From UHGV virus genome UHGV-0123060: a DNA stretch of 14,403 nucleotides; one strand, written 5' to 3'. This document shows positions 1 to 10,796 of this stretch, one piece after another (the first letter of the stretch is position 1; each line of letters opens with the position of its first letter). This DNA is from a virus. The translations under genes were made by a program, and so were the position numbers. The notes below the pieces were generated by a model. The model made no database searches. It saw nothing but the letters and a program-made list of their open reading frames with translations, and was not told where the DNA came from.

Positions 1-27
1 GAGTTCAGACGTGTGCTCTTCCGATCT
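1..27. other. Illumina TruSeq adapter remnant (sequencing/assembly artefact, not biological)
   Basis: Window starts GAGTTCAGACGTGTGCTCTTCCGATCT, which matches the 3' 27 nt of the TruSeq index/read-2 adapter (reverse complement of GATCGGAAGAGCACACGTCTGAACTC...). Genomic sequence begins at about 28. Confidence 0.9.
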
Positions 28-1309
28 TTTCACGATCTGAAACCAGGTAACCAGCATACGCTCCCCATAATTTAAGCCATGGAGGTATCGGAAGACCGGA
101 TATTTTTGCGAATGCTCCCAATACTTTTGTTACCCATACCCCAGCGATGAAAGTAGCCAAAATTTCCAGCGAGTTCTGCCATCCACCAACAGAATCTTTC
201 AGCCCCAGAAGCTTATCGCGCAGCCAGAGAATTGCCTTTTTCGCCTTTTCTATTGCAGGCTCCCACTTGGACCAGTCAATCAGGCTTTTACCGCCTTCTT
301 TCCACGTCTGATAATCGTCATAGAGTAATCCGATCGCCAGAATCAGCGTGGTGATAATTCCAATCGGGGATTTCAGGAACGCAGAATTAAGCAGACGCCA
401 TGCGACAAGTAGAGCACCGAATATTTTCAGCAGATTTTTACTGCCATCGTCAAGACGCTTCCACCAGTCAATGACAGAGCCAGCGCCCTGTATGAGCCGC
501 CACGCCATTCGCGTGAAGGCGTTCGCAAGCCAGATCACGCCTTTAATAACTCTGGTCAGCGCCTCTTCAATCTTCGGGAAGTTGTCGAGGATGCGCCGCC
601 GCAGGCTGTCCAGCGAACCAGCAAGACCACCAGCGAGGTTTGAGCCGATCTTGTCCCGCATAATGCCGAACAGCGACGTAAGCCCGCGCATGGACGTCAT
701 GAATTTATTGGACTGCACAGCCGCCTTATCAGCGTTGAACCCAGTCTTTTGCAGCATAGACTGGTAATCGGCGGTAAAGCCATTCATGCCGCGCCGCATC
801 GCCATCAGCGTGTTTTCATCGATGCCAAGCATCTGCGCGTATTGCTTCGCGCGGTAATACGGCATGTTGTTGAGCTTTTGCCCAACGCCAGTAAAGATGG
901 CCGCAGTATCACGCATCTTTCCGCTGGCATCTCGGGTCTGGACACCAAGACGGTTCAGGAAGCCTTCCGCCCCCGGATTGCTACGCATGAAACCGGCCAG
1001 CCCTTCGAGGGAGGACATGGCCGACTCGGCGCTGGCACCGGTTTGCGACGCGGCATAGCCCAGCGCTTTGATGCCCTGGACGCTGGCCCCCGTCCGTTGG
1101 GATGCCCAGTAAATTTTATCCAGACCATTCGCGATCTGGGTGGTAAATCCGACAATGCTCAGCGCTGCGCCTTCCACCACCGCACCGACCTTCAGAACGT
1201 TCGCGGTAACGCCTTTCAGCACGGCTTCAAACTTATTAGCGCCAGCCTGATCGATATCGAATCCCAGCGAAACAAGGAAATCTTTAATCGTATCTGCGTT
1301 ACCGCTCAT
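28..1309 (-). CDS. Tail tape measure protein, N-terminal part (truncated by contig end)
   Basis: ATG at 1309 with GGAG upstream; open to the window edge (ORF track 5..1309, 434 aa). Ala/Gly/Ser-rich helical N-terminal region followed by hydrophobic segments (e.g. LLKIFGALLVAWRLL, IGIITTLILAIGLL). Lies immediately after the frameshifted chaperone pair, the canonical tape-measure position. The last ~8 codons of the track ORF (KIGRAHV) are adapter-derived. Confidence 0.8.
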
Positions 1310-1541
1310 TGGCCGCTCTCCATTTATCTACCCGGGCGTCGTTATCCTCGCGCATGTCGAGGTAGTCATTGAGAAGCGCGATACGGCAGAGGTCTACCGC
1401 ACCGCTGTTAAGGTCTTTCTGGTCAATATGGAAGGCAAGCGCCGGACGAAGAATAAAGTCTTCACCGCCCGGCAGGCTGTTGAAGGTTATTCCGCTGGCG
1501 GGGTGCTCGTCTCGCTGGTAGGGAGTCCTTGCAAAAAATTT
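1299..1541 (-). CDS. Tail assembly chaperone -1 frameshift extension (GT-type fusion product; with upstream part of 1487..1912)
   Basis: The -1 frame relative to the 141-aa chaperone ORF is open from the slippery run for about 80 codons (KFFARTPYQRDEHPASGITFNSLPGGEDFILRPALAFHIDQKDLNSGAVDLCRIALLNDYLDMREDNDARVDKWRAANER) and stops at 1299-1301, just past the tape-measure ATG. This is the conserved G/GT arrangement. Confidence 0.7.
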   Translation of the reverse strand, partial: KFFARTPYQRDEHPASGITFNSLPGGEDFILRPALAFHIDQKDLNSGAVDLCRIALLNDYLDMREDNDARVDKWRAANER

Positions 1542-1912
1542 CCCAGCGAGTCGGCGACCACCCGCGCCACCAGTTGCAGCATGGTAAGCAGGTCGATATC
1601 GTCAAACGCCATTTCGCCATGCTGGCAGACCGGCACCCAGCCTTTCATGTGCTCGCGTGAAACAACGGAAAGACAGGGGAACAGGATAGCGTCCACGTCG
1701 CCATCACTCAGATCGGACACAGCATTGGCAATCTTTGGCAGGATGGTAGCCATCGCGCCTTCGGTGTCTTTGCTGCTGATCTTCTCCTGAACGCTCCGGA
1801 AGTCCGAAACCATCCCGGCCAGAACCGGCAACAGCTTGCGGGACACCTTCAGCTGTTCGAAAACGCTGAGCTTTGCGGTGCGATATTTCACGCCTTTAAT
1901 TTCGAATTCCAT
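1487..1912 (-). CDS. Tail assembly chaperone (G-like, zero-frame product)
   Basis: 141-aa ORF between tail tube and tape measure; ATG at 1912 four nt after the tube stop; contains the slippery site near its 3' end with an open -1 frame downstream. Confidence 0.75.
   Translation of the reverse strand: MEFEIKGVKYRTAKLSVFEQLKVSRKLLPVLAGMVSDFRSVQEKISSKDTEGAMATILPKIANAVSDLSDGDVDAILFPCLSVVSREHMKGWVPVCQHGEMAFDDIDLLTMLQLVARVVADSLGNFLQGLPTSETSTPPAE
1532..1538 (-). other. Candidate -1 programmed ribosomal frameshift slippery heptamer T_TTT_TTG
   Basis: Minus-strand sequence ctg gga aat ttt ttg caa in the chaperone zero frame (LGNFLQ). The heptamer T TTT TTG is in the correct phase and matches, from memory, the slippery sequence used for P2 E/E+E'. 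An overlapping A AAT TTT is an alternative. Confidence 0.6.
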
Positions 1913-1915
1913 GCG

Positions 1916-2356
1916 TTAAAACTCCCCGAGCAGCTGGTCAATCTTGCCGCAATCGAATACCCAGGCTACGGTTCCGCCCTCTTTGGCGTTATTGAAATCA
2001 GGCTGTTTCTGGAATGCACACGAACGCGCAGTAGAAATATCACCCGATGCCGTGTTGCGAATGACGATCACGTTATTTCCCCAGGTGGCAGAGGACTGGC
2101 TTTGCGCGTTATACGCCAGAGACAGCTTCTTGTTCACCGGGGAGGTTTTCAGCAGCGTCACCGTAATGGTGCCTGACTTATCGGCGTGCAGGCTGTGCAT
2201 CACTTCGCCATCGGCACCGATGGTCATGGTGTTCTTGTTGCCGCCCATAGTCTGGGTGATACCTTCCTCAGAGTTCGCAGAACCCTGACCAAGATCGATA
2301 ACTCCGGTCGGCCCGGTGAGCGACGCGGTTACATCGAGAAAAGAATAAGTTGCCAT
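1916..2356 (-). CDS. Tail tube protein (contractile-tail type), putative
   Basis: 146-aa ORF with a perfect SD (AAGGAG, spacer 6) before the ATG at 2356. Size and position (after the sheath candidate, before the chaperones) fit a myovirus tube protein. Called by synteny, not by alignment. Confidence 0.6.
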   Translation of the reverse strand: MATYSFLDVTASLTGPTGVIDLGQGSANSEEGITQTMGGNKNTMTIGADGEVMHSLHADKSGTITVTLLKTSPVNKKLSLAYNAQSQSSATWGNNVIVIRNTASGDISTARSCAFQKQPDFNNAKEGGTVAWVFDCGKIDQLLGEF

Positions 2357-2366
2357 TTATCGCTCC

Positions 2367-3527
2367 TTAGCGAACCACGTTGATCTGCACATCGGCATAA
2401 TGAACTGCGCCAGCCAGCTTACAGGCCACCTGGATTAACGGTGCTTTGCGCGCTTCGCGGTCGGCCTGCGCCTGTTGCACCAGCGGCTGCGCATAGACGT
2501 AATAGCCTTTGGTCAGCGTATCGCCGGAATTCAGCTGTCCGATAGGGCCACCATTCCACACGCCAGCAGCTACCAGACCGTTCGTGACGGACTGATCCAT
2601 GGACTGTTCAACGTTGGAAAGCAGACGGGTCACACCGGCATCAGTCTGCGGAATTTTGGTGGTGCTGGTGTAAAGCAGGTTATAGAGGTTGGTCTGAACG
2701 TAGTTCTGCAACCAGTCGAGCCCGTGGCGCTCGTCGAAGAAGTCACCGTTCGCCATGACACCCTGTTGCAGGATCGCCGTGTCGTTGGCGTAGTACACGA
2801 ACACGTTCGCATTCTTCGCATCCACCGCAGCCGCCTGGCCTACCGTCAACGTTTCGTAGGTTACGCTTGGTTCCTGTTTGAACTTCAGGGTAATGGTGGT
2901 ATTGCTGCCGTTGAAATTGACAGTAAACGCACGACCGAAAGCAGAAACCGCTGCGTAAGGGCTGCTGGTGGAATACTGAATAAAGGTACGGGCATACTTG
3001 CCAGCCTTTAATTTTGACGCAACATCGGTCGTCGAAGTCGTGCTGATAATCTCGGCGTCGGCAGAGGTCACACCAAAGATACGGCTAAGGCTGGACGCTT
3101 CAATAAGTTTGGCGACCTCAATCACGTCATCAGCATCAAGCACATCGCCACCAGCGACAACATCATCAGCGACAACCAGCCCATACCAGTTGGTATACTG
3201 CAGGCAGGCATTAACAGCTTGCACGATGGTTTCCACGCTTCCACCTTCGGAAGAGGTCAGCGTCTTCGCCCAGCGGCCAACATAAACCTGCGTCGGCTTC
3301 GGCGACTGGCTGAAGAAAACCTGCGCCGCTTCATATTCCGGGCTGTCGACTCCGAAGTCCTCGCCAATGTCCTCAACGGACGCATAAAGGCGAACGCGCT
3401 CCTGCACCGGAATGACAGTGGAAGAACCGAGGATCAGCAGTGCGCCGAAGTTACGACCAGTAGCCGCTTTCGGCGAGATGATCACATCAACGTTTACAAC
3501 GTTGGATACAGGTAAGCCCTGCGTCAT
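2367..3527 (-). CDS. Tail sheath protein, putative
   Basis: 386-aa ORF directly upstream of the tube candidate; order sheath-tube-chaperone(frameshift)-tape measure is the P2/Mu-like contractile-tail arrangement. Family assignment is from size and synteny only. Confidence 0.6.
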
Positions 3528-3530
3528 AGT

Positions 3531-4094
3531 TTATTCTCCAAAAAAGGTGACTGGCGCTTCCACCAGCGATTTGATGCCGTACTCGCGCACGACCTTCCGG
3601 CGCAGGCGCACCGTCATGTCGTAGCGGCGAACCCATTGCTGGTTGATAAGCTCGGGGAAAGGGGTCAGACCGGTATAGTCGCCCAGGGATAAACCGAGCG
3701 CGTTCAGCTCAGCATTATTTTGCGGGACAGATATGCCATCGCGAAAACGGGACGCATAAGACATACCCGCCGGGCCATAGAACGACGCCATGCACTCGAA
3801 CGTTTCATGCCGCCAGAGCTGAGCGCCCTCGTCGGTCTGCCTGGTGAATGCAGGACTGTTATCAATGAGCAACCCGGTAACGCCAAACGCGCACCAGTTC
3901 GTTTCAACGGGTGGCAGTGGCGGCTGATTTTTCTGCCAGCGCGGACGAACCATTCCAGACGGCAAGCCGGAAACATTGCGCATCCACTGGCTTAGCAGCC
4001 TGTCGAGCGCTTCGTCATAATCCGGATCGCCGCTGGTGGGTGTCAGCCAGCCGCGCTCTGTGCTGGTGTTATTGCTCAACGGGAGTACCCCCAT
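3531..4094 (-). CDS. Hypothetical structural protein (tail completion/neck region), start ambiguous
   Basis: ORF track 3531..4136 begins at a GTG; first in-frame ATG is at 4094. Stop is 4 nt before the sheath ATG. Position between head and tail genes. Confidence 0.5.
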   Translation of the reverse strand: MGVLPLSNNTSTERGWLTPTSGDPDYDEALDRLLSQWMRNVSGLPSGMVRPRWQKNQPPLPPVETNWCAFGVTGLLIDNSPAFTRQTDEGAQLWRHETFECMASFYGPAGMSYASRFRDGISVPQNNAELNALGLSLGDYTGLTPFPELINQQWVRRYDMTVRLRRKVVREYGIKSLVEAPVTFFGE

Positions 4095-4458
4095 CAAACG
4101 GCAACAGTTCGCAATGCGCCTGGACGAAGCCAGCACCGTAAGCGGTATACGGGTCGACGAACGTCACACGATAATCACGGTTCTGATACGTCACGATATC
4201 GGCATCACGGCCAGTCTGCCCCTGCGTAAGTCGTTCAGTCGTCACGATAAGAATCGCGCCGCTGATAACCTGCCCGGCCTGCATGCGGCGGTTTTCCAGA
4301 GAGCGGTCAACGGTAACAACCCCGGCAAACTGCGTTTTAACTTCGCTGTCGCTGCCGATCCCGTCCTCGTCCACCGTTTGCGCGCGACGCGTTACCCACA
4401 GGTTGAAGTCGCAAAAATCGGGGTCAAAAAGCACGTCTGTTACATCAAGATTCGGCAT
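4069..4458 (-). CDS. Hypothetical head-tail joining/neck protein
   Basis: 129-aa ORF, ATG at 4458, inside the run of small genes between capsid and sheath. No motif recognised. Confidence 0.5.
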   Translation of the reverse strand: MPNLDVTDVLFDPDFCDFNLWVTRRAQTVDEDGIGSDSEVKTQFAGVVTVDRSLENRRMQAGQVISGAILIVTTERLTQGQTGRDADIVTYQNRDYRVTFVDPYTAYGAGFVQAHCELLPFDGGTPVEQ

Positions 4459-8704: not shown

Positions 8705-9478
8705 TCAGGCGAGATAGGGATGAGGTGTCGGGAATACGATTTCTTTGTAGCAACGGCAGTTAGGTAACTCCCCGGCGTGACCGGTCATGCCGTCAAGCGT
8801 TGGAGGTCGGCCCCATTCGACAAACTTCCCTTCCATCTCTCGATGAGAATGCCGGACGTCGCCATCTTCGGCTGTACGCCAGATATAGCCATTCGAGCCG
8901 ATTGACAGCGCACGCGCCTGATCCAGTGCACCGGTTGCGCGCCCAAGCTCAGTCCGGGCGATAAGGTTCGCTCGTGAGCGTGACACGTCACCGGAAGCAG
9001 CTATCTCTTTCGCGAATGGCTCAGCGCGGCCACCAGTCACAACAGCCTCGATGGCTTTGTTCTGAATGTCATACACGCGATCGGCAGCCTCAAGAGGCAG
9101 CGATTTGATGTACTTAATTTGCTCGGCGACGATGGATTTCATCACCTGGCCTACCGGGGCGCGGTCAACCATGTTACGCAGCTCTGCGCTGATGTTCCGG
9201 CTGTGCTGACGCCACTGCTTTTCATTCTGGCGCGCTATGTCTGCGGTGAAGTTCTCAGCAACCTTCGTCGCCCAGGGGGTGATGATTTCGCTGTAGCGCT
9301 CCAGCGCATCCATGATTTCGGTGACGCTATCGTTTGAACCATCGTAGCGCCCATTTACGATATCCCCGACCGCCCGCGCTATCTGCCGTAGGCTCGTTCG
9401 ATATCGGATCTCCGCCTGGCGACTCTGGCGGTTTGTCGCCAAGTTCGCCGATGCCTGGCGGCGCTTCGTCTTCGGCAT
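8705..9478 (-). CDS. Head morphogenesis protein, phage Mu F-like / SPP1 gp7 family
   Basis: C-terminal region carries the family motifs as I recall them (WRTAEDGDVRHSHREMEGK ... LPNCRCY). Located directly after the portal gene. First ATG at 9478 lies 152 nt inside the portal ORF, so the true start may be downstream. Confidence 0.8.
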   Translation of the reverse strand: MPKTKRRQASANLATNRQSRQAEIRYRTSLRQIARAVGDIVNGRYDGSNDSVTEIMDALERYSEIITPWATKVAENFTADIARQNEKQWRQHSRNISAELRNMVDRAPVGQVMKSIVAEQIKYIKSLPLEAADRVYDIQNKAIEAVVTGGRAEPFAKEIAASGDVSRSRANLIARTELGRATGALDQARALSIGSNGYIWRTAEDGDVRHSHREMEGKFVEWGRPPTLDGMTGHAGELPNCRCYKEIVFPTPHPYLA

Positions 9479-10796
9479 TCTCGATATCCTCGTCGGTAAT
9501 GGATGCTCCGATACCAGTGACGTCAGAGTTTTCGCGCAGGTCGGTCATTGCCGCCTTACGCGTCATCAATCCGTCGCCCAGCGCGGTGCTGATCGCGGTG
9601 GTGGTGTTTACGGCCACCGTTGAGCGGTCAACGTCAGACATTTGCCATAGCGGGTTAAACTCAAACGTGAAATCGTCCGGCAGCGGCTTGCCGAGTTCAG
9701 AGCGGTGCATAATGTCCAGTATCCGGCGCATCGGCAGCCGTAAGCGTCGCTCCTGCAATGAACTCACCCGGTCGTAATAGTTGGCGAGGTCAGCATCACC
9801 AGTAGAGAAGCCTTTCGGGGATTGACCGAACAGGCGTACCAGCGGGATGCCGACGGCACCGCTGATCTGCTCAGCGAACTGCGAAAGAATGTCATCCAGA
9901 CCGCTGAAGCTGTACTGGTGGGTTTCGAAGGTATCCTTGGCATCCATTAGCGTCATGCCTTCATTGCTCTGAAACTGGCGAATCAGATCAATGTTTTTCA
10001 GCAGCGCCTCGAATGCCGGGCCTCCCAGCGCAATAAGCTCACGAAGTTTTTCCACCTTGTAGGTCCGCAGATGCGCTTTGTAGACCAGCTGCGCCGCGCC
10101 GACAGTGGCGCTGTCGAACGCAGTAAGCCGATCCCAGATACGCTCTACAACCGACATTCCCCATTCGTTTTCGGTCATCTTCTGCTGGAATGGCAGCGTG
10201 ACGCCATCGAAGCGAATCAGGCGGCTGTGATGGATGCGCCAAGACGGGATGCCCGTAGCAGTGGTCACCACGTCGTAAAACTCAGGTTTGCCGAGATCCG
10301 GCCCCATCTCTTTAATGCGGCGGGTCAGCACCGGATTAATCATCCAGCGGTCGAGCGGGAGAATTCCCTTAAACTTGCCTTCTCCAATGGTTTCGAGCCG
10401 CAGCGGGGTCATTGGTGCCTGCCCCTCAATCATGATGAAGCCAACCGCGCCGCCGTAGAGACGCGACCATTTCAGCACGTCGTTCAGCGCATCCCAGATC
10501 TGCAACTCATCCAGCTGCGCTTCCAGGGTGCCACGGTCTTTGGCGTCAATCTCCGAAGTGATGCGAATGCCTTTCCGGGTCATATCGTCCGGGATAGCGT
10601 CGACCGCTTCGCCGATAACCCACGATCCGCGATATGACCATTCCACCAGCATGCGGTTGCGGCTGGTGAAGTTCGCCCGGTAGGTCGATGCTGAGTGCTG
10701 GTTAGGCGTCTGCATCCCCACGCGGGCGACAAAGTTCTCATAGCCATCAGCGGTGGCCTGCGCCGTTCGCTGAGAGGCTTGCTTGTTTCGTGCCAT
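9327..10796 (-). CDS. Portal protein, putative
   Basis: 489-aa ORF whose ATG (10796-10794) overlaps the terminase stop (TGATG). Size and position between large terminase and Mu-F-like gene; acidic Pro/Gly-rich disordered C-terminal tail. Confidence 0.7.
   Translation of the reverse strand: MARNKQASQRTAQATADGYENFVARVGMQTPNQHSASTYRANFTSRNRMLVEWSYRGSWVIGEAVDAIPDDMTRKGIRITSEIDAKDRGTLEAQLDELQIWDALNDVLKWSRLYGGAVGFIMIEGQAPMTPLRLETIGEGKFKGILPLDRWMINPVLTRRIKEMGPDLGKPEFYDVVTTATGIPSWRIHHSRLIRFDGVTLPFQQKMTENEWGMSVVERIWDRLTAFDSATVGAAQLVYKAHLRTYKVEKLRELIALGGPAFEALLKNIDLIRQFQSNEGMTLMDAKDTFETHQYSFSGLDDILSQFAEQISGAVGIPLVRLFGQSPKGFSTGDADLANYYDRVSSLQERRLRLPMRRILDIMHRSELGKPLPDDFTFEFNPLWQMSDVDRSTVAVNTTTAISTALGDGLMTRKAAMTDLRENSDVTGIGASITDEDIENAEDEAPPGIGELGDKPPESPGGDPISNEPTADSAGGRGYRKWALRWFKR

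What the first reader, a model, noticed from the sequence alone, without database searches (positions are those of the whole stretch)
1299..1912. P2-like T_TTT_TTG -1 frameshift site producing a chaperone fusion that ends at the tape-measure start
The zero frame stops at 1487, but the -1 frame is open from the slippery run (1532-1538) for about 80 codons to 1299-1301, overlapping the tape-measure ATG at 1309. This is the conserved tail-chaperone recoding architecture and independently supports the tail-gene assignments. No obvious strong downstream stimulatory structure was checked.
Basis: partly seen in the sequence, partly recalled or inferred. Interest (0 to 1): 0.5.

Follow-up and report, generated by a model that had tools for sequence, protein, structure and literature searches.

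The report
Tail chaperone -1 ribosomal frameshift site
This is the ordinary, widely conserved programmed -1 ribosomal frameshift that lets a phage make a short and a long version of its tail-assembly chaperone from one gene; it is real here, but it is a known mechanism that has already been annotated in related phages.

Summary
On the minus strand a 141-aa tail-assembly-chaperone ORF (1912-1487, Pfam Phage_TAC_15) contains T_TTT_TTG (1538-1532) in the correct register. From there the -1 frame is open for 79 codons to TAA 1301-1299, 8 nt past the tape-measure ATG (1309).

In 71 non-redundant relatives the T-run heptamer is kept by synonymous codon choice (TTG 66/71 against a 13% background). 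The -1 ORF is always 77-84 codons long and ends at the tape-measure start. Its translation (Pfam DUF6889) is conserved from the slip site onward. Codon-position variability switches to the -1 frame directly after the heptamer. The only start codon in the window's -1 ORF lies 18 codons before its stop.

No conserved downstream RNA structure exists, as in P2.

- The site is a 13-nt tract, G_GGA_AAT_TTT_TTG, made of three overlapping heptamers, and distant relatives keep different ones.
- "P2-like" applies to the heptamer and the gene architecture, not to protein homology.

Klebsiella phage Mulock (56% identical, same tract) already carries an annotated "frameshift product", whereas PGAP annotates E. 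coli prophages with a separate small "DUF6889 protein". This is a new member of a known kind, of low interest.

The parts
1487..1912 (-). Zero-frame tail assembly chaperone ORF (the short, TAC-N / gpG- or gpE-like product), 141 aa, stop TAA 1489-1487
1532..1544 (-). Slippery tract G_GGA_AAT_TTT_TTG, made of three overlapping in-frame X_XXY_YYZ heptamers.
   Evidence: locate the tract. Synonymous-codon conservation in 71 non-redundant relatives: NNT 71/71, TTT 70/71, TTG 66/71 (background 13%), GGA 63/71 (background 10%).
1299..1538 (-). -1 frame extension (the T- or E'-like domain): 79 codons from 1538 to 1302, then stop TAA 1301-1299. It encodes Pfam DUF6889.
   Evidence: One search gives the ORF. 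It matches PF21829 at 1.3e-11 and phrog_4364 at 2.4e-17. The alignment of 71 relatives is conserved from the first codons (FFARTP.xRD ... LP.GED ... DL.dIAlmND.Ld..aDN..Ri..Wr). Codon-position variability fits the -1 frame.
1299..1912 (-). Predicted frameshift fusion product of 204 aa: 127 aa from 1912-1532, then 77 aa from 1532-1302 after re-reading one base. The junction is ...VVADSLGNFL|ARTPYQR... if the slip is at T_TTT_TTG, or ...GNFF|ART... if it is at an upstream heptamer.
   Evidence: The junction is derived. Homologous joined CDSs are annotated in Klebsiella phage Mulock and Burkholderia phage Magia.
1487..1531 (-). Dual-coded overlap between the heptamer and the zero-frame stop. Selection mainly follows the -1 frame here.
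   Evidence: Pairwise differences by zero-frame codon position are 0.31/0.51/0.41, so the most variable position is the -1 frame's third position. The body of the gene gives 0.32/0.21/0.58.
1299..1321 (-). Junction with the tape-measure gene: GGAG Shine-Dalgarno at 1321-1318, ATG at 1309-1307, fusion stop TAA at 1301-1299 (ATGAGCGGTAA overlap).
   Evidence: The same architecture is seen in 71 relatives, where the -1 stop lies 1-38 nt after the detected tape-measure start, and in P2 E+E'/T.
28..1309 (-). [quoted passage not shown]
   Evidence: It matches phrog_2276 at 7e-172. The 99%-identical E. coli CX12 prophage has a 755-aa tape measure protein with an SLT domain.
1916..2356 (-). Tail tube gene immediately upstream
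   Evidence: PF11681 at 5.8e-60 and phrog_280
2367..3527 (-). Tail sheath gene
   Evidence: PF11863 DUF3383 at 1e-102 and phrog_205 'tail sheath' at 7e-128

Best explanation
This is a programmed -1 ribosomal frameshift in the tail-assembly-chaperone gene of a temperate myovirus. The window is about 99% identical to Citrobacter phage Omnitron and to E. coli prophages.

Most ribosomes translate 1912-1487 and terminate, giving the 141-aa chaperone. A minority slip back one base on the tract G_GGA_AAT_TTT_TTG (1544-1532). The most likely event is tandem slippage of the P-site tRNA-Phe and the A-site tRNA-Leu on T_TTT_TTG. Those ribosomes continue in the -1 frame for 77 more codons and terminate at TAA 1301-1299, inside the start of the tape-measure gene. 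The result is a 204-aa fusion whose C-terminal domain is what Pfam calls DUF6889.

By analogy with lambda gpG/gpGT and P2 gpE/gpE+E', the shared N-domain would coat the tape measure protein. The rare C-terminal domain would recruit the tube protein, and the fixed ratio of the two products would be set by slippage efficiency. No stimulatory RNA structure is needed.

What is shown here: the sequence anatomy, protein-family membership, the fold of the N-domain, purifying selection on the -1 frame beginning at the tract, selection on the slippery nucleotides, and the absence of an alternative start.

What is inferred: that slippage is ribosomal, which heptamer is used, its efficiency, and the assembly role of the two products.
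For: (1) Anatomy.

(2) Gene context is sheath, tube, chaperone, tape measure.

(3) The -1 segment is a recognised conserved protein family: PF21829 at 1e-11 and phrog_4364 at 2e-17.

(4) Evidence from 71 relatives under 95% nucleotide identity, spanning 44-99% chaperone identity:
- The -1 ORF is 77-84 codons long and always ends at the tape-measure start.
- Its translation is conserved from the slip site onward.
- Codon-position variability switches frame exactly at the tract.
- Synonymous conservation is sharply localised to GGA AAT TTT TTG, while the rest of the gene shows ordinary codon variation.
- When Asn changes to Ser, Asp or Gly, the wobble T is kept (AGT, GAT, GGT), which preserves T_TTT_TTN.

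(5) No independent start:
- The only ATG/GTG/TTG in the window's -1 ORF is 18 codons from its end.
- Database ORF calls for 'DUF6889 protein' have inconsistent N-termini of 46-75 aa.

(6) More distant relatives keep the -1 ORF and an in-frame heptamer at the same position, although the sequence differs:
- Acinetobacter: G_GGA_AAT / A_AAT_TTT.
- Bordetella: G_GGA_AAT.
- Burkholderia phage Magia, BgManors32 and phage WC36-2: C_CCT_TTT.
- Ralstonia: G_GGT_TTT / T_TTT_TTC.

(7) Homologues in Klebsiella phage Mulock (same tract) and Burkholderia phage Magia are deposited with joined 'tape measure chaperone frameshift product' CDSs.

(8) P2 uses TTTTTTG in the same register, without a downstream structure, and its E+E' stop overlaps the T gene ATG (PMC3091744).

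Against: - There is no experimental evidence for this family. No junction peptide and no reporter assay were found, and no paper mentions DUF6889.
- There is no detectable stimulatory element. The 80 nt downstream fold no better than shuffles (z = 0.17), RNAalifold finds no consensus structure in 71 relatives, and Rfam gives no hit. This is expected for lambda- and P2-type sites, but it removes one line of support.
- Part of the nucleotide conservation of the tract is forced by the invariant amino acids G-N-F-L, although the synonymous-codon statistics argue for more than that.
- Two distant relatives, Edwardsiella ZHS and Burkholderia vB_E192a, have the conserved open -1 ORF but no canonical in-frame X_XXY_YYZ. 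The rule is therefore not absolute across the wider family.
- The used heptamer cannot be assigned computationally.
Confidence: 0.9

Rival explanations
1. The mechanism is the same, a ribosomal -1 slip, but it happens mainly at an upstream heptamer of the tract (G_GGA_AAT, which is lambda-like, or A_AAT_TTT) rather than at T_TTT_TTG. The junction would then read ...GNFF-ART... instead of ...GNFL-ART....
For: - GGA is used in 63/71 relatives against a 10% background for Gly codons, and the preceding Leu codon usually ends in G.
- One intact relative (L051, Salmonella) has the T-run broken (AAT ATT TTG) and keeps only G_GGA_AAT.
- Bordetella phage IFTN9 has only G_GGA_AAT, and Acinetobacter Ab105-1phi has G_GGA_AAT / A_AAT_TTT but no T6 run.
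- The Burkholderia phages use C_CCT_TTT and Ralstonia G_GGT_TTT. In both, the Phe TTT codon is in the A site, as in A_AAT_TTT.
Against: - Nine of 71 relatives have lost both upstream heptamers (AGT, GAT or GGT in place of AAT) yet keep T_TTT_TTN. The T-run heptamer is present in 70/71.
- T_TTT_TTG is the site given for P2 gene E (PMC3091744).
- From my own recollection of the literature, not tested here: an Asn codon in the A site is a poor shifter in E. coli.
Confidence: 0.25
2. Transcriptional slippage. RNA polymerase adds an extra U in the U6 run, producing an mRNA subpopulation in which the chaperone and DUF6889 are in one frame (product ...GNFF-ART...).
For: - The conserved element in the enterobacterial clade is a T6 homopolymer, and the wobble T is preserved even when the amino acid changes.
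- The run is mutable. A Logan assembly (L164, P0004) carries T7, which gives an in-frame 213-aa fusion.
Against: - From general knowledge, not tested here: six U residues are below the run length (about 9 or more) usually needed for productive slippage.
- Distant family members keep the -1 ORF without any homopolymer longer than 4, but with canonical in-frame tandem-slippage heptamers: Bordetella G_GGA_AAT and Burkholderia C_CCT_TTT.
- The register of the heptamer relative to the zero frame is invariant.
Confidence: 0.05
3. The downstream ORF is an independent small gene (the 'DUF6889 family protein' of PGAP and other annotations), translated from its own start or by re-initiation after the chaperone stop.
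For: - RefSeq/PGAP annotates a separate 27-aa CDS in E. coli CX12.
- Hafnia phage yong1 has a separate 58-aa CDS.
- 23 database proteins of 46-75 aa are named this way.
Against: - In the window the only canonical start (ATG 1355) would give 18 aa and has no Shine-Dalgarno sequence. It lies inside, not before, the DUF6889 match (residues 40-75 of 79).
- L054 has no start at all, and many relatives have their first start at codon 47-61.
- The annotated N-termini are inconsistent.
- Amino-acid conservation and -1-frame codon periodicity begin at the slip tract, 16 codons upstream of the zero-frame stop. Re-initiation after that stop cannot explain this.
Confidence: 0.03
4. It is a chance open frame or non-functional remnant with no second product.
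For: A 79-codon open -1 frame occurs at 3.6% of codon positions in this window, so it is not impossible by chance.
Against: - The frame is open and conserved as protein in 71 diverse relatives and in Acinetobacter, Bordetella, Burkholderia and Ralstonia phages.
- It matches curated Pfam and PHROG families.
Confidence: 0.01

Closest known systems
Klebsiella phage Mulock CPT_Mulock_014/015 (MN098327), 'tape measure chaperone' and 'tape measure chaperone frameshift product'; also Burkholderia phage Magia 015/016
   Same: Mulock's chaperone is homologous (about 56% identity across the fusion). It has the identical tract TTGGGAAATTTTTTG and the same -1 extension ending at the tape-measure start. 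It is deposited as a joined CDS. Magia is a more distant homologue with an annotated frameshift at the same position.
   Different: Those annotations are bioinformatic only, and the Mulock announcement does not mention the frameshift. Magia uses C_CCT_TTT rather than the T6 tract.
Phage P2 gpE / gpE+E' -1 frameshift (Christie et al. 2002, as cited in PMC3091744)
   Same: - The heptamer T_TTT_TTG is in the same register (GGT TTT TTG in P2).
[quoted passage not shown]
- The fusion stop overlaps the tape-measure ATG (ATGAGTAA in P2, ATGAGCGGTAA here).
- There is no downstream stimulatory hairpin.
   Different: - There is no detectable sequence similarity (BLASTP E = 46) and no P2 gpE Pfam family hit even at E <= 10.
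- The products are larger: 141/204 aa against 91/142 aa.
- The flanking sheath and tube genes are of the DUF3383 / PF11681 type, not P2 FI/FII.
- Two additional overlapping heptamers lie upstream.
Phage lambda gpG / gpGT (Levin 1993; Xu, Hendrix and Duda 2004, 2013, 2014; reviewed in PMC5009743)
   Same: - The gene position and the -1 direction are the same.
- The two products share an N-terminus.
- No stimulatory structure is required.
- The tract includes G_GGA_AAT, one base different from lambda's G_GGA_AAG.
   Different: This phage is a myovirus, not a siphovirus. There is no sequence similarity. The dominant conserved heptamer is the T-run.
Pakpunavirus / Vandenendeviridae TAC-N / TAC-NC frameshift with a conserved GTTTTT motif (PMC12846349)
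   Same: - The tail-module type is the same (DUF3383-like sheath, KPP10 ORF10-like tube).
- A poly-T slippery motif lies near the 3' end of TAC-N.
- The downstream ORF is routinely mis-annotated as a separate hypothetical gene.
- The argument rests on the same kind of comparative evidence.
   Different: These are virulent Pseudomonas phages. No sequence-level match to them was retrieved here.

Membership tests
Conserved tail-assembly-chaperone -1 frameshift (G/GT type, Xu et al. 2004) | Two overlapping ORFs lie between the major tail/tube gene and the tape-measure gene | tested here: met
   Tube gene at 1916-2356, chaperone at 1487-1912, -1 ORF down to 1299, tape-measure ATG at 1309.
Conserved tail-assembly-chaperone -1 frameshift (G/GT type, Xu et al. 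2004) | [quoted passage not shown] | tested here: met
   T_TTT_TTG lies 49 nt before the stop, with two more overlapping heptamers upstream. It is conserved by synonymous codon choice.
Conserved tail-assembly-chaperone -1 frameshift (G/GT type, Xu et al. 2004) | The downstream ORF lacks its own conserved start and is under protein-coding selection from the slip site | tested here: met
Conserved tail-assembly-chaperone -1 frameshift (G/GT type, Xu et al. 2004) | The fusion protein is actually made, at a low fixed ratio, and is required for tail assembly | not testable with these tools
   This needs a western blot, mass spectrometry or a reporter assay, plus genetics.
Conserved tail-assembly-chaperone -1 frameshift (G/GT type, Xu et al. 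2004) | The N-terminal domain has the chaperone fold | tested here: met
P2 gpE / gpE+E' | TTTTTTG slip site in the T_TTT_TTG register, with the fusion stop overlapping the tape-measure ATG | tested here: met
P2 gpE / gpE+E' | Protein homology to gpE / E' | tested here: not met
   BLASTP gives E = 46. The only Pfam hits, even at E <= 10, are Phage_TAC_15 and DUF6889.
Pfam PF21822 Phage_TAC_15 and PF21829 DUF6889 | Score above the curated gathering thresholds | tested here: met
   114.9 bits against a cut-off of 22, and 44.5 bits against a cut-off of 23.9.
Stimulated -1 PRF (dnaX / IS / retroviral type) | A downstream hairpin or pseudoknot 5-9 nt after the heptamer, or an upstream Shine-Dalgarno-like stimulator | tested here: not met
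   The downstream fold gives z = 0.17. RNAalifold finds no consensus structure in 71 sequences. Rfam gives no hit. Synonymous conservation upstream is not elevated beyond the tract, apart from a mild rise at V132 and L137.

The most novel reading that the evidence does not exclude
The 13-nt tract G_GGA_AAT_TTT_TTG may be a composite slip site. In this reading a lambda-type heptamer (G_GGA_AAN) and a P2-type heptamer (T_TTT_TTG) are each independently maintained by selection, so ribosomes get two or three consecutive chances to shift into the same frame. That would give redundancy, since either heptamer can be lost (as in L051 compared with the AGT/GAT/GGT variants). It might also give a higher chaperone-to-fusion ratio without any RNA stimulator.

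A corollary is that Pfam DUF6889 is the frameshift-only 'T domain' of Phage_TAC_15 chaperones. The separate 'DUF6889 family protein' or 'lytic transglycosylase' CDSs in hundreds of enterobacterial prophage annotations would then be artefacts.
Probability: 0.35. Interest if true: 0.35.

Novelty: new member of a known kind. Interest (0 to 1): 0.18.

Why it matters
The practical value lies in annotation. The finding confirms the tail-gene assignments in this window. It gives a function to Pfam DUF6889 as the frameshift-encoded C-terminal domain of Phage_TAC_15 chaperones. It also shows that the PGAP-style separate small 'DUF6889 family protein' CDSs, sometimes mis-named 'lytic transglycosylase', should be joined ribosomal-slippage features. 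Matches to this region occur in 401 of 5,426 complete E. coli genomes.

Mechanistically it adds one more clade to the well-known G/GT rule. The only mildly new point is the tandem arrangement of three overlapping heptamers and the way different relatives retain different ones.

Tried and rejected
- **Downstream stimulatory structure.**
  - I folded 80 nt and 201 nt of the window.
  - The 201-nt fold shows a long hairpin whose arms flank the slip site (z = -1.87). Its 5' arm would be inside the ribosome during decoding.
  - RNAalifold on 71 relatives gives no consensus for +7..+87, +7..+127 or -45..+107. I rejected a stimulatory structure.
- **Rfam.** A scan of 1200-2000 gave nothing.
- **Solved structures.** A sequence search of the PDB with the fusion protein found nothing significant.
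- **Literature.** A search for DUF6889 returned no papers. The Mulock genome announcement does not mention the chaperone. Vladimirov et al. 2022, on the tail assembly chaperones of T4-like phages, is not held in the library.
- **Natural in-frame fusions.**
  - I looked for these as 'Rosetta stone' evidence. Only P0004 was found, from a T7 variant in one Logan assembly.
  - P0001 is an error-ridden fragment.
  - This may be a homopolymer error, so I did not use it as evidence.
- **Apparent 434-aa tape measure protein.** I considered that it might be a real truncation. It is not: the contig ends in Illumina adapter sequence.
Full report
**Observation**

All genes in this part of the window run on the minus strand. 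The ORF from 1912 to 1487 (141 aa) ends at TAA 1489-1487. Its codons ...CTG GGA AAT TTT TTG CAA... place the run 1538-1532 as T_TTT_TTG in the X_XXY_YYZ register.

From 1538 the -1 frame is open for 79 codons to TAA 1301-1299. This is 8 nt past the ATG (1309-1307) of the next large ORF, which is preceded by GGAG at 1321-1318.

Within the window's 17 minus-strand ORFs there are only 11 in-frame slippery heptamers. Three of them are the overlapping set G_GGA_AAT / A_AAT_TTT / T_TTT_TTG at this spot. A -1 frame open for at least 79 codons occurs at only 3.6% of codon positions.

**Context**

The upstream genes are a tail sheath (2367-3527; PF11863/DUF3383 1e-102; phrog_205) and a tail tube (1916-2356; PF11681 6e-60). 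The ORF itself is a tail assembly chaperone (PF21822 Phage_TAC_15 4e-33; phrog_1688 2e-57). The downstream ORF is a tape measure protein (phrog_2276 7e-172).

Further upstream lie neck and head genes, the major head protein, a protease, the portal and the large terminase.

The region is 99% identical to Citrobacter phage Omnitron, which is unannotated, and to prophages in E. coli. Matches to it occur in 401 of 5,426 complete E. coli genomes, 37 of them at 95% identity or more.

**Is the -1 frame coding?**

The 79-aa -1 translation matches Pfam PF21829 (DUF6889, 1e-11, residues 40-75) and phrog_4364 (2e-17, residues 26-79).

I collected relatives from one-genome-per-species bacterial contigs, IMG/VR and GenBank phages and reduced them to 71 sequences below 95% nucleotide identity. 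Their chaperones are 44-99% identical to the window's.

- In all 71, the -1 ORF from the tract is 77-84 codons long and stops 1-38 nt after the detected tape-measure start.
- Its translation aligns without trouble and is conserved from the very first codons (FFaRtPr.rd ... LP.Ged...rPv ... vDL.dIAlmND.Ld..aDN..Ri..Wr).
- Mean pairwise differences by codon position:

| Region | Frame scored | pos 1 / pos 2 / pos 3 |
|---|---|---|
| Body of the chaperone | zero | 0.32 / 0.21 / 0.58 |
| Extension beyond the zero-frame stop | -1 | 0.30 / 0.25 / 0.57 |
| 16-codon overlap | -1 | 0.37 / 0.32 / 0.51 |
| 16-codon overlap | zero | 0.31 / 0.51 / 0.41 |

Selection therefore follows the -1 frame immediately after the tract, upstream of the zero-frame stop.

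Exceptions are visibly decayed copies:
- L025 has an indel in the extension.
- L063 has a stop in the extension and comes from an Arsenophonus MAG.
- L061 and L075 have broken chaperone ORFs.

**Is the slippery sequence under selection?**

Across the 71 sequences the four codons are GGA 63/71, NNT 71/71 (AAT 63, AGT 5, GGT 2, GAT 1), TTT 70/71 and TTG 66/71. Background usage in the same genes is GGA 10% of Gly, AAT 42% of Asn, AGT 22% of AGY Ser, TTT 50% of Phe and TTG 13% of Leu.

A per-column scan shows this synonymous conservation is confined to these four codons and then to the dual-coded overlap. When the Asn residue is replaced, the wobble T is retained, which preserves T_TTT_TTN.

**No independent start**

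In the window, the -1 frame between its upstream stop (1604-1602) and 1299 contains a single ATG/GTG/TTG. This is ATG 1355, 18 codons from the end, inside the DUF6889 match and without a Shine-Dalgarno sequence.

In relatives the first possible start ranges from codon 16 to 61 of about 79. L054 has none, and several clades have their first start only at codon 47 or 55.

Database proteins called 'DUF6889 family protein', or wrongly 'lytic transglycosylase', are 46-75 aa long with inconsistent N-termini. PGAP annotates a 27-aa CDS in E. coli CX12, and Hafnia phage yong1 has a 58-aa CDS starting at TTG. These look like gene-caller makeshifts.

**Stimulatory elements**

- The 80 nt downstream fold no better than shuffled sequences (z = 0.17).
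- A 201-nt fold gives a hairpin whose arms flank the tract (z = -1.87). Its 5' arm would be in the ribosome during decoding, and RNAalifold finds no consensus structure in the 71 relatives for any of three windows.
- Rfam has no match.

This agrees with what is reported for P2 and its Burkholderia relatives, where no hairpin is found within 60 bp (PMC3091744).

**Which heptamer?**

The tract holds three overlapping in-frame heptamers.

| Heptamers present | Relatives (of 71) |
|---|---|
| All three | 57 |
| A_AAT_TTT and T_TTT_TTN (first G lost) | 4 |
| T_TTT_TTN only | 9 |
| G_GGA_AAT only (L051, Salmonella; AAT ATT TTG) | 1 |

More distant homologues at 30-40% identity keep the open, conserved -1 ORF at the same position:

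| Phage | Slippery sequence |
|---|---|
| Acinetobacter Ab105-1phi | G_GGA_AAT / A_AAT_TTT, no T6 |
| Bordetella IFTN9 | G_GGA_AAT only |
| Ralstonia PY059YO380 | G_GGT_TTT / T_TTT_TTC |
| Burkholderia Magia, BgManors32; phage WC36-2 | C_CCT_TTT |
| Edwardsiella ZHS, Burkholderia vB_E192a | no canonical heptamer |

T_TTT_TTG is therefore the best-conserved heptamer in the enterobacterial clade, and it is the experimentally established P2 site. The strong GGA preference and the distant relatives suggest that the upstream heptamers also contribute.

The two possibilities predict different junction residues: ...GNFL-ART... or ...GNFF-ART.... The in-frame canonical heptamers in relatives that lack any long homopolymer argue for ribosomal rather than transcriptional slippage.

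**Comparison with known systems**

- P2 (NC_001895) has GGT TTT TTG in the same register, an annotated -1 site, and an E+E' stop overlapping the T gene ATG (ATGAGTAA). There is no sequence similarity between gpE and this protein (E = 46), and no other chaperone Pfam family is hit even at E <= 10.
- An AlphaFold2 model of a 59%-identical homologue (P0004) has a confident N-domain (pLDDT about 90 for residues 1-136), a low-confidence linker (139-186) and a confident C-terminal helix.
- Klebsiella phage Mulock (about 56% identity, identical tract) and Burkholderia phage Magia are already deposited with joined 'tape measure chaperone frameshift product' CDSs. The Mulock paper does not discuss this.
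- A 2025 paper makes the same comparative argument for Pakpunavirus tail assembly chaperones with a GTTTTT motif (PMC12846349).
- The biology of the G/GT ratio is reviewed in PMC5009743.

**Verdict**

This is a new member of a very well known kind, already annotated in homologues. Its value is corrective: DUF6889 is the frameshift-only C-terminal domain of Phage_TAC_15 chaperones. The only mildly novel angle is the composite three-heptamer tract.

No experimental data exist for this clade. The decisive tests are tagged expression with synonymous tract mutants and mass spectrometry of the junction peptide.

Noticed in passing
window 1-27 (+ strand): The first 27 bases of the window are the reverse complement of the Illumina TruSeq adapter AGATCGGAAGAGCACACGTCTGAACTC. 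The contig therefore ends in adapter read-through.
   Followed up: yes
window 5-1309 (-): The tape-measure ORF appears to stop after 434 aa (stop at 7-5), but that stop lies inside the adapter sequence. In the 99%-identical E. coli CX12 prophage the protein is 755 aa with a C-terminal SLT lytic transglycosylase domain. The truncation is an assembly artefact.
   Followed up: yes
L003 4019-4102 (E. coli CX12), L001 3425-3601 (Hafnia phage yong1); P0121-P0141: Public annotations treat the -1 segment as a separate small gene ('DUF6889 family protein', sometimes 'lytic transglycosylase') with N-termini varying from 27 to 75 aa. None of the PGAP records seen uses a ribosomal-slippage join.
   Followed up: yes
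L164 1896-1909 (Logan SRR23924998 contig; protein P0004): A relative carries T7 instead of T6 (GGGAAATTTTTTTGCC), which puts the chaperone and DUF6889 in one 213-aa ORF. This is either a homopolymer assembly error or a natural fusion-only mutant.
   Followed up: partly
L051 (Salmonella enterica CP191473), around 2899-2911: This is the only intact relative with the T-run interrupted (CTG GGA AAT ATT TTG). The -1 ORF is still open and conserved, and only G_GGA_AAT remains as a canonical heptamer.
   Followed up: partly
L166 (Edwardsiella phage vB_EpM_ZHS), L168 (Burkholderia phage vB_E192a): These distant homologues have a conserved open -1 extension but no canonical in-frame X_XXY_YYZ heptamer at the homologous position (GGG GAT TTT ATG and GGT TCT TTT ATC). 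How they shift frame is unclear.
   Followed up: no
window 3657-3663 (-), in ORF 3531-4136: Two overlapping in-frame heptamers (C_CCT_TTC and T_TTC_CCC) lie 127-130 nt before the stop of the phrog_1973 gene. Their -1 frame is open for 57-58 codons and runs past that stop into the sheath gene start. This is probably chance, and I did not examine it in relatives.
   Followed up: no
window 1470-1573 (-): In the 201-nt fold, a long imperfect hairpin pairs CUGGUGGCGCGGGUGGUCGCCGACUCGCUGG upstream of the tract with CCAGCGAGACGAGCACCCCGCCAGCGG downstream, leaving the slippery tract in its 24-nt loop (z = -1.87). It is not conserved in the 71-sequence alignment.
   Followed up: partly
window 4069-4136 and 9327-9478 (-): Mechanically listed ORFs overlap by 68 nt (3531-4136 with 4069-4458) and by 152 nt (8705-9478 with 9327-10796). 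For 3531-4136 the PHROG match starts at residue 22, so its true start is probably further downstream.
   Followed up: no
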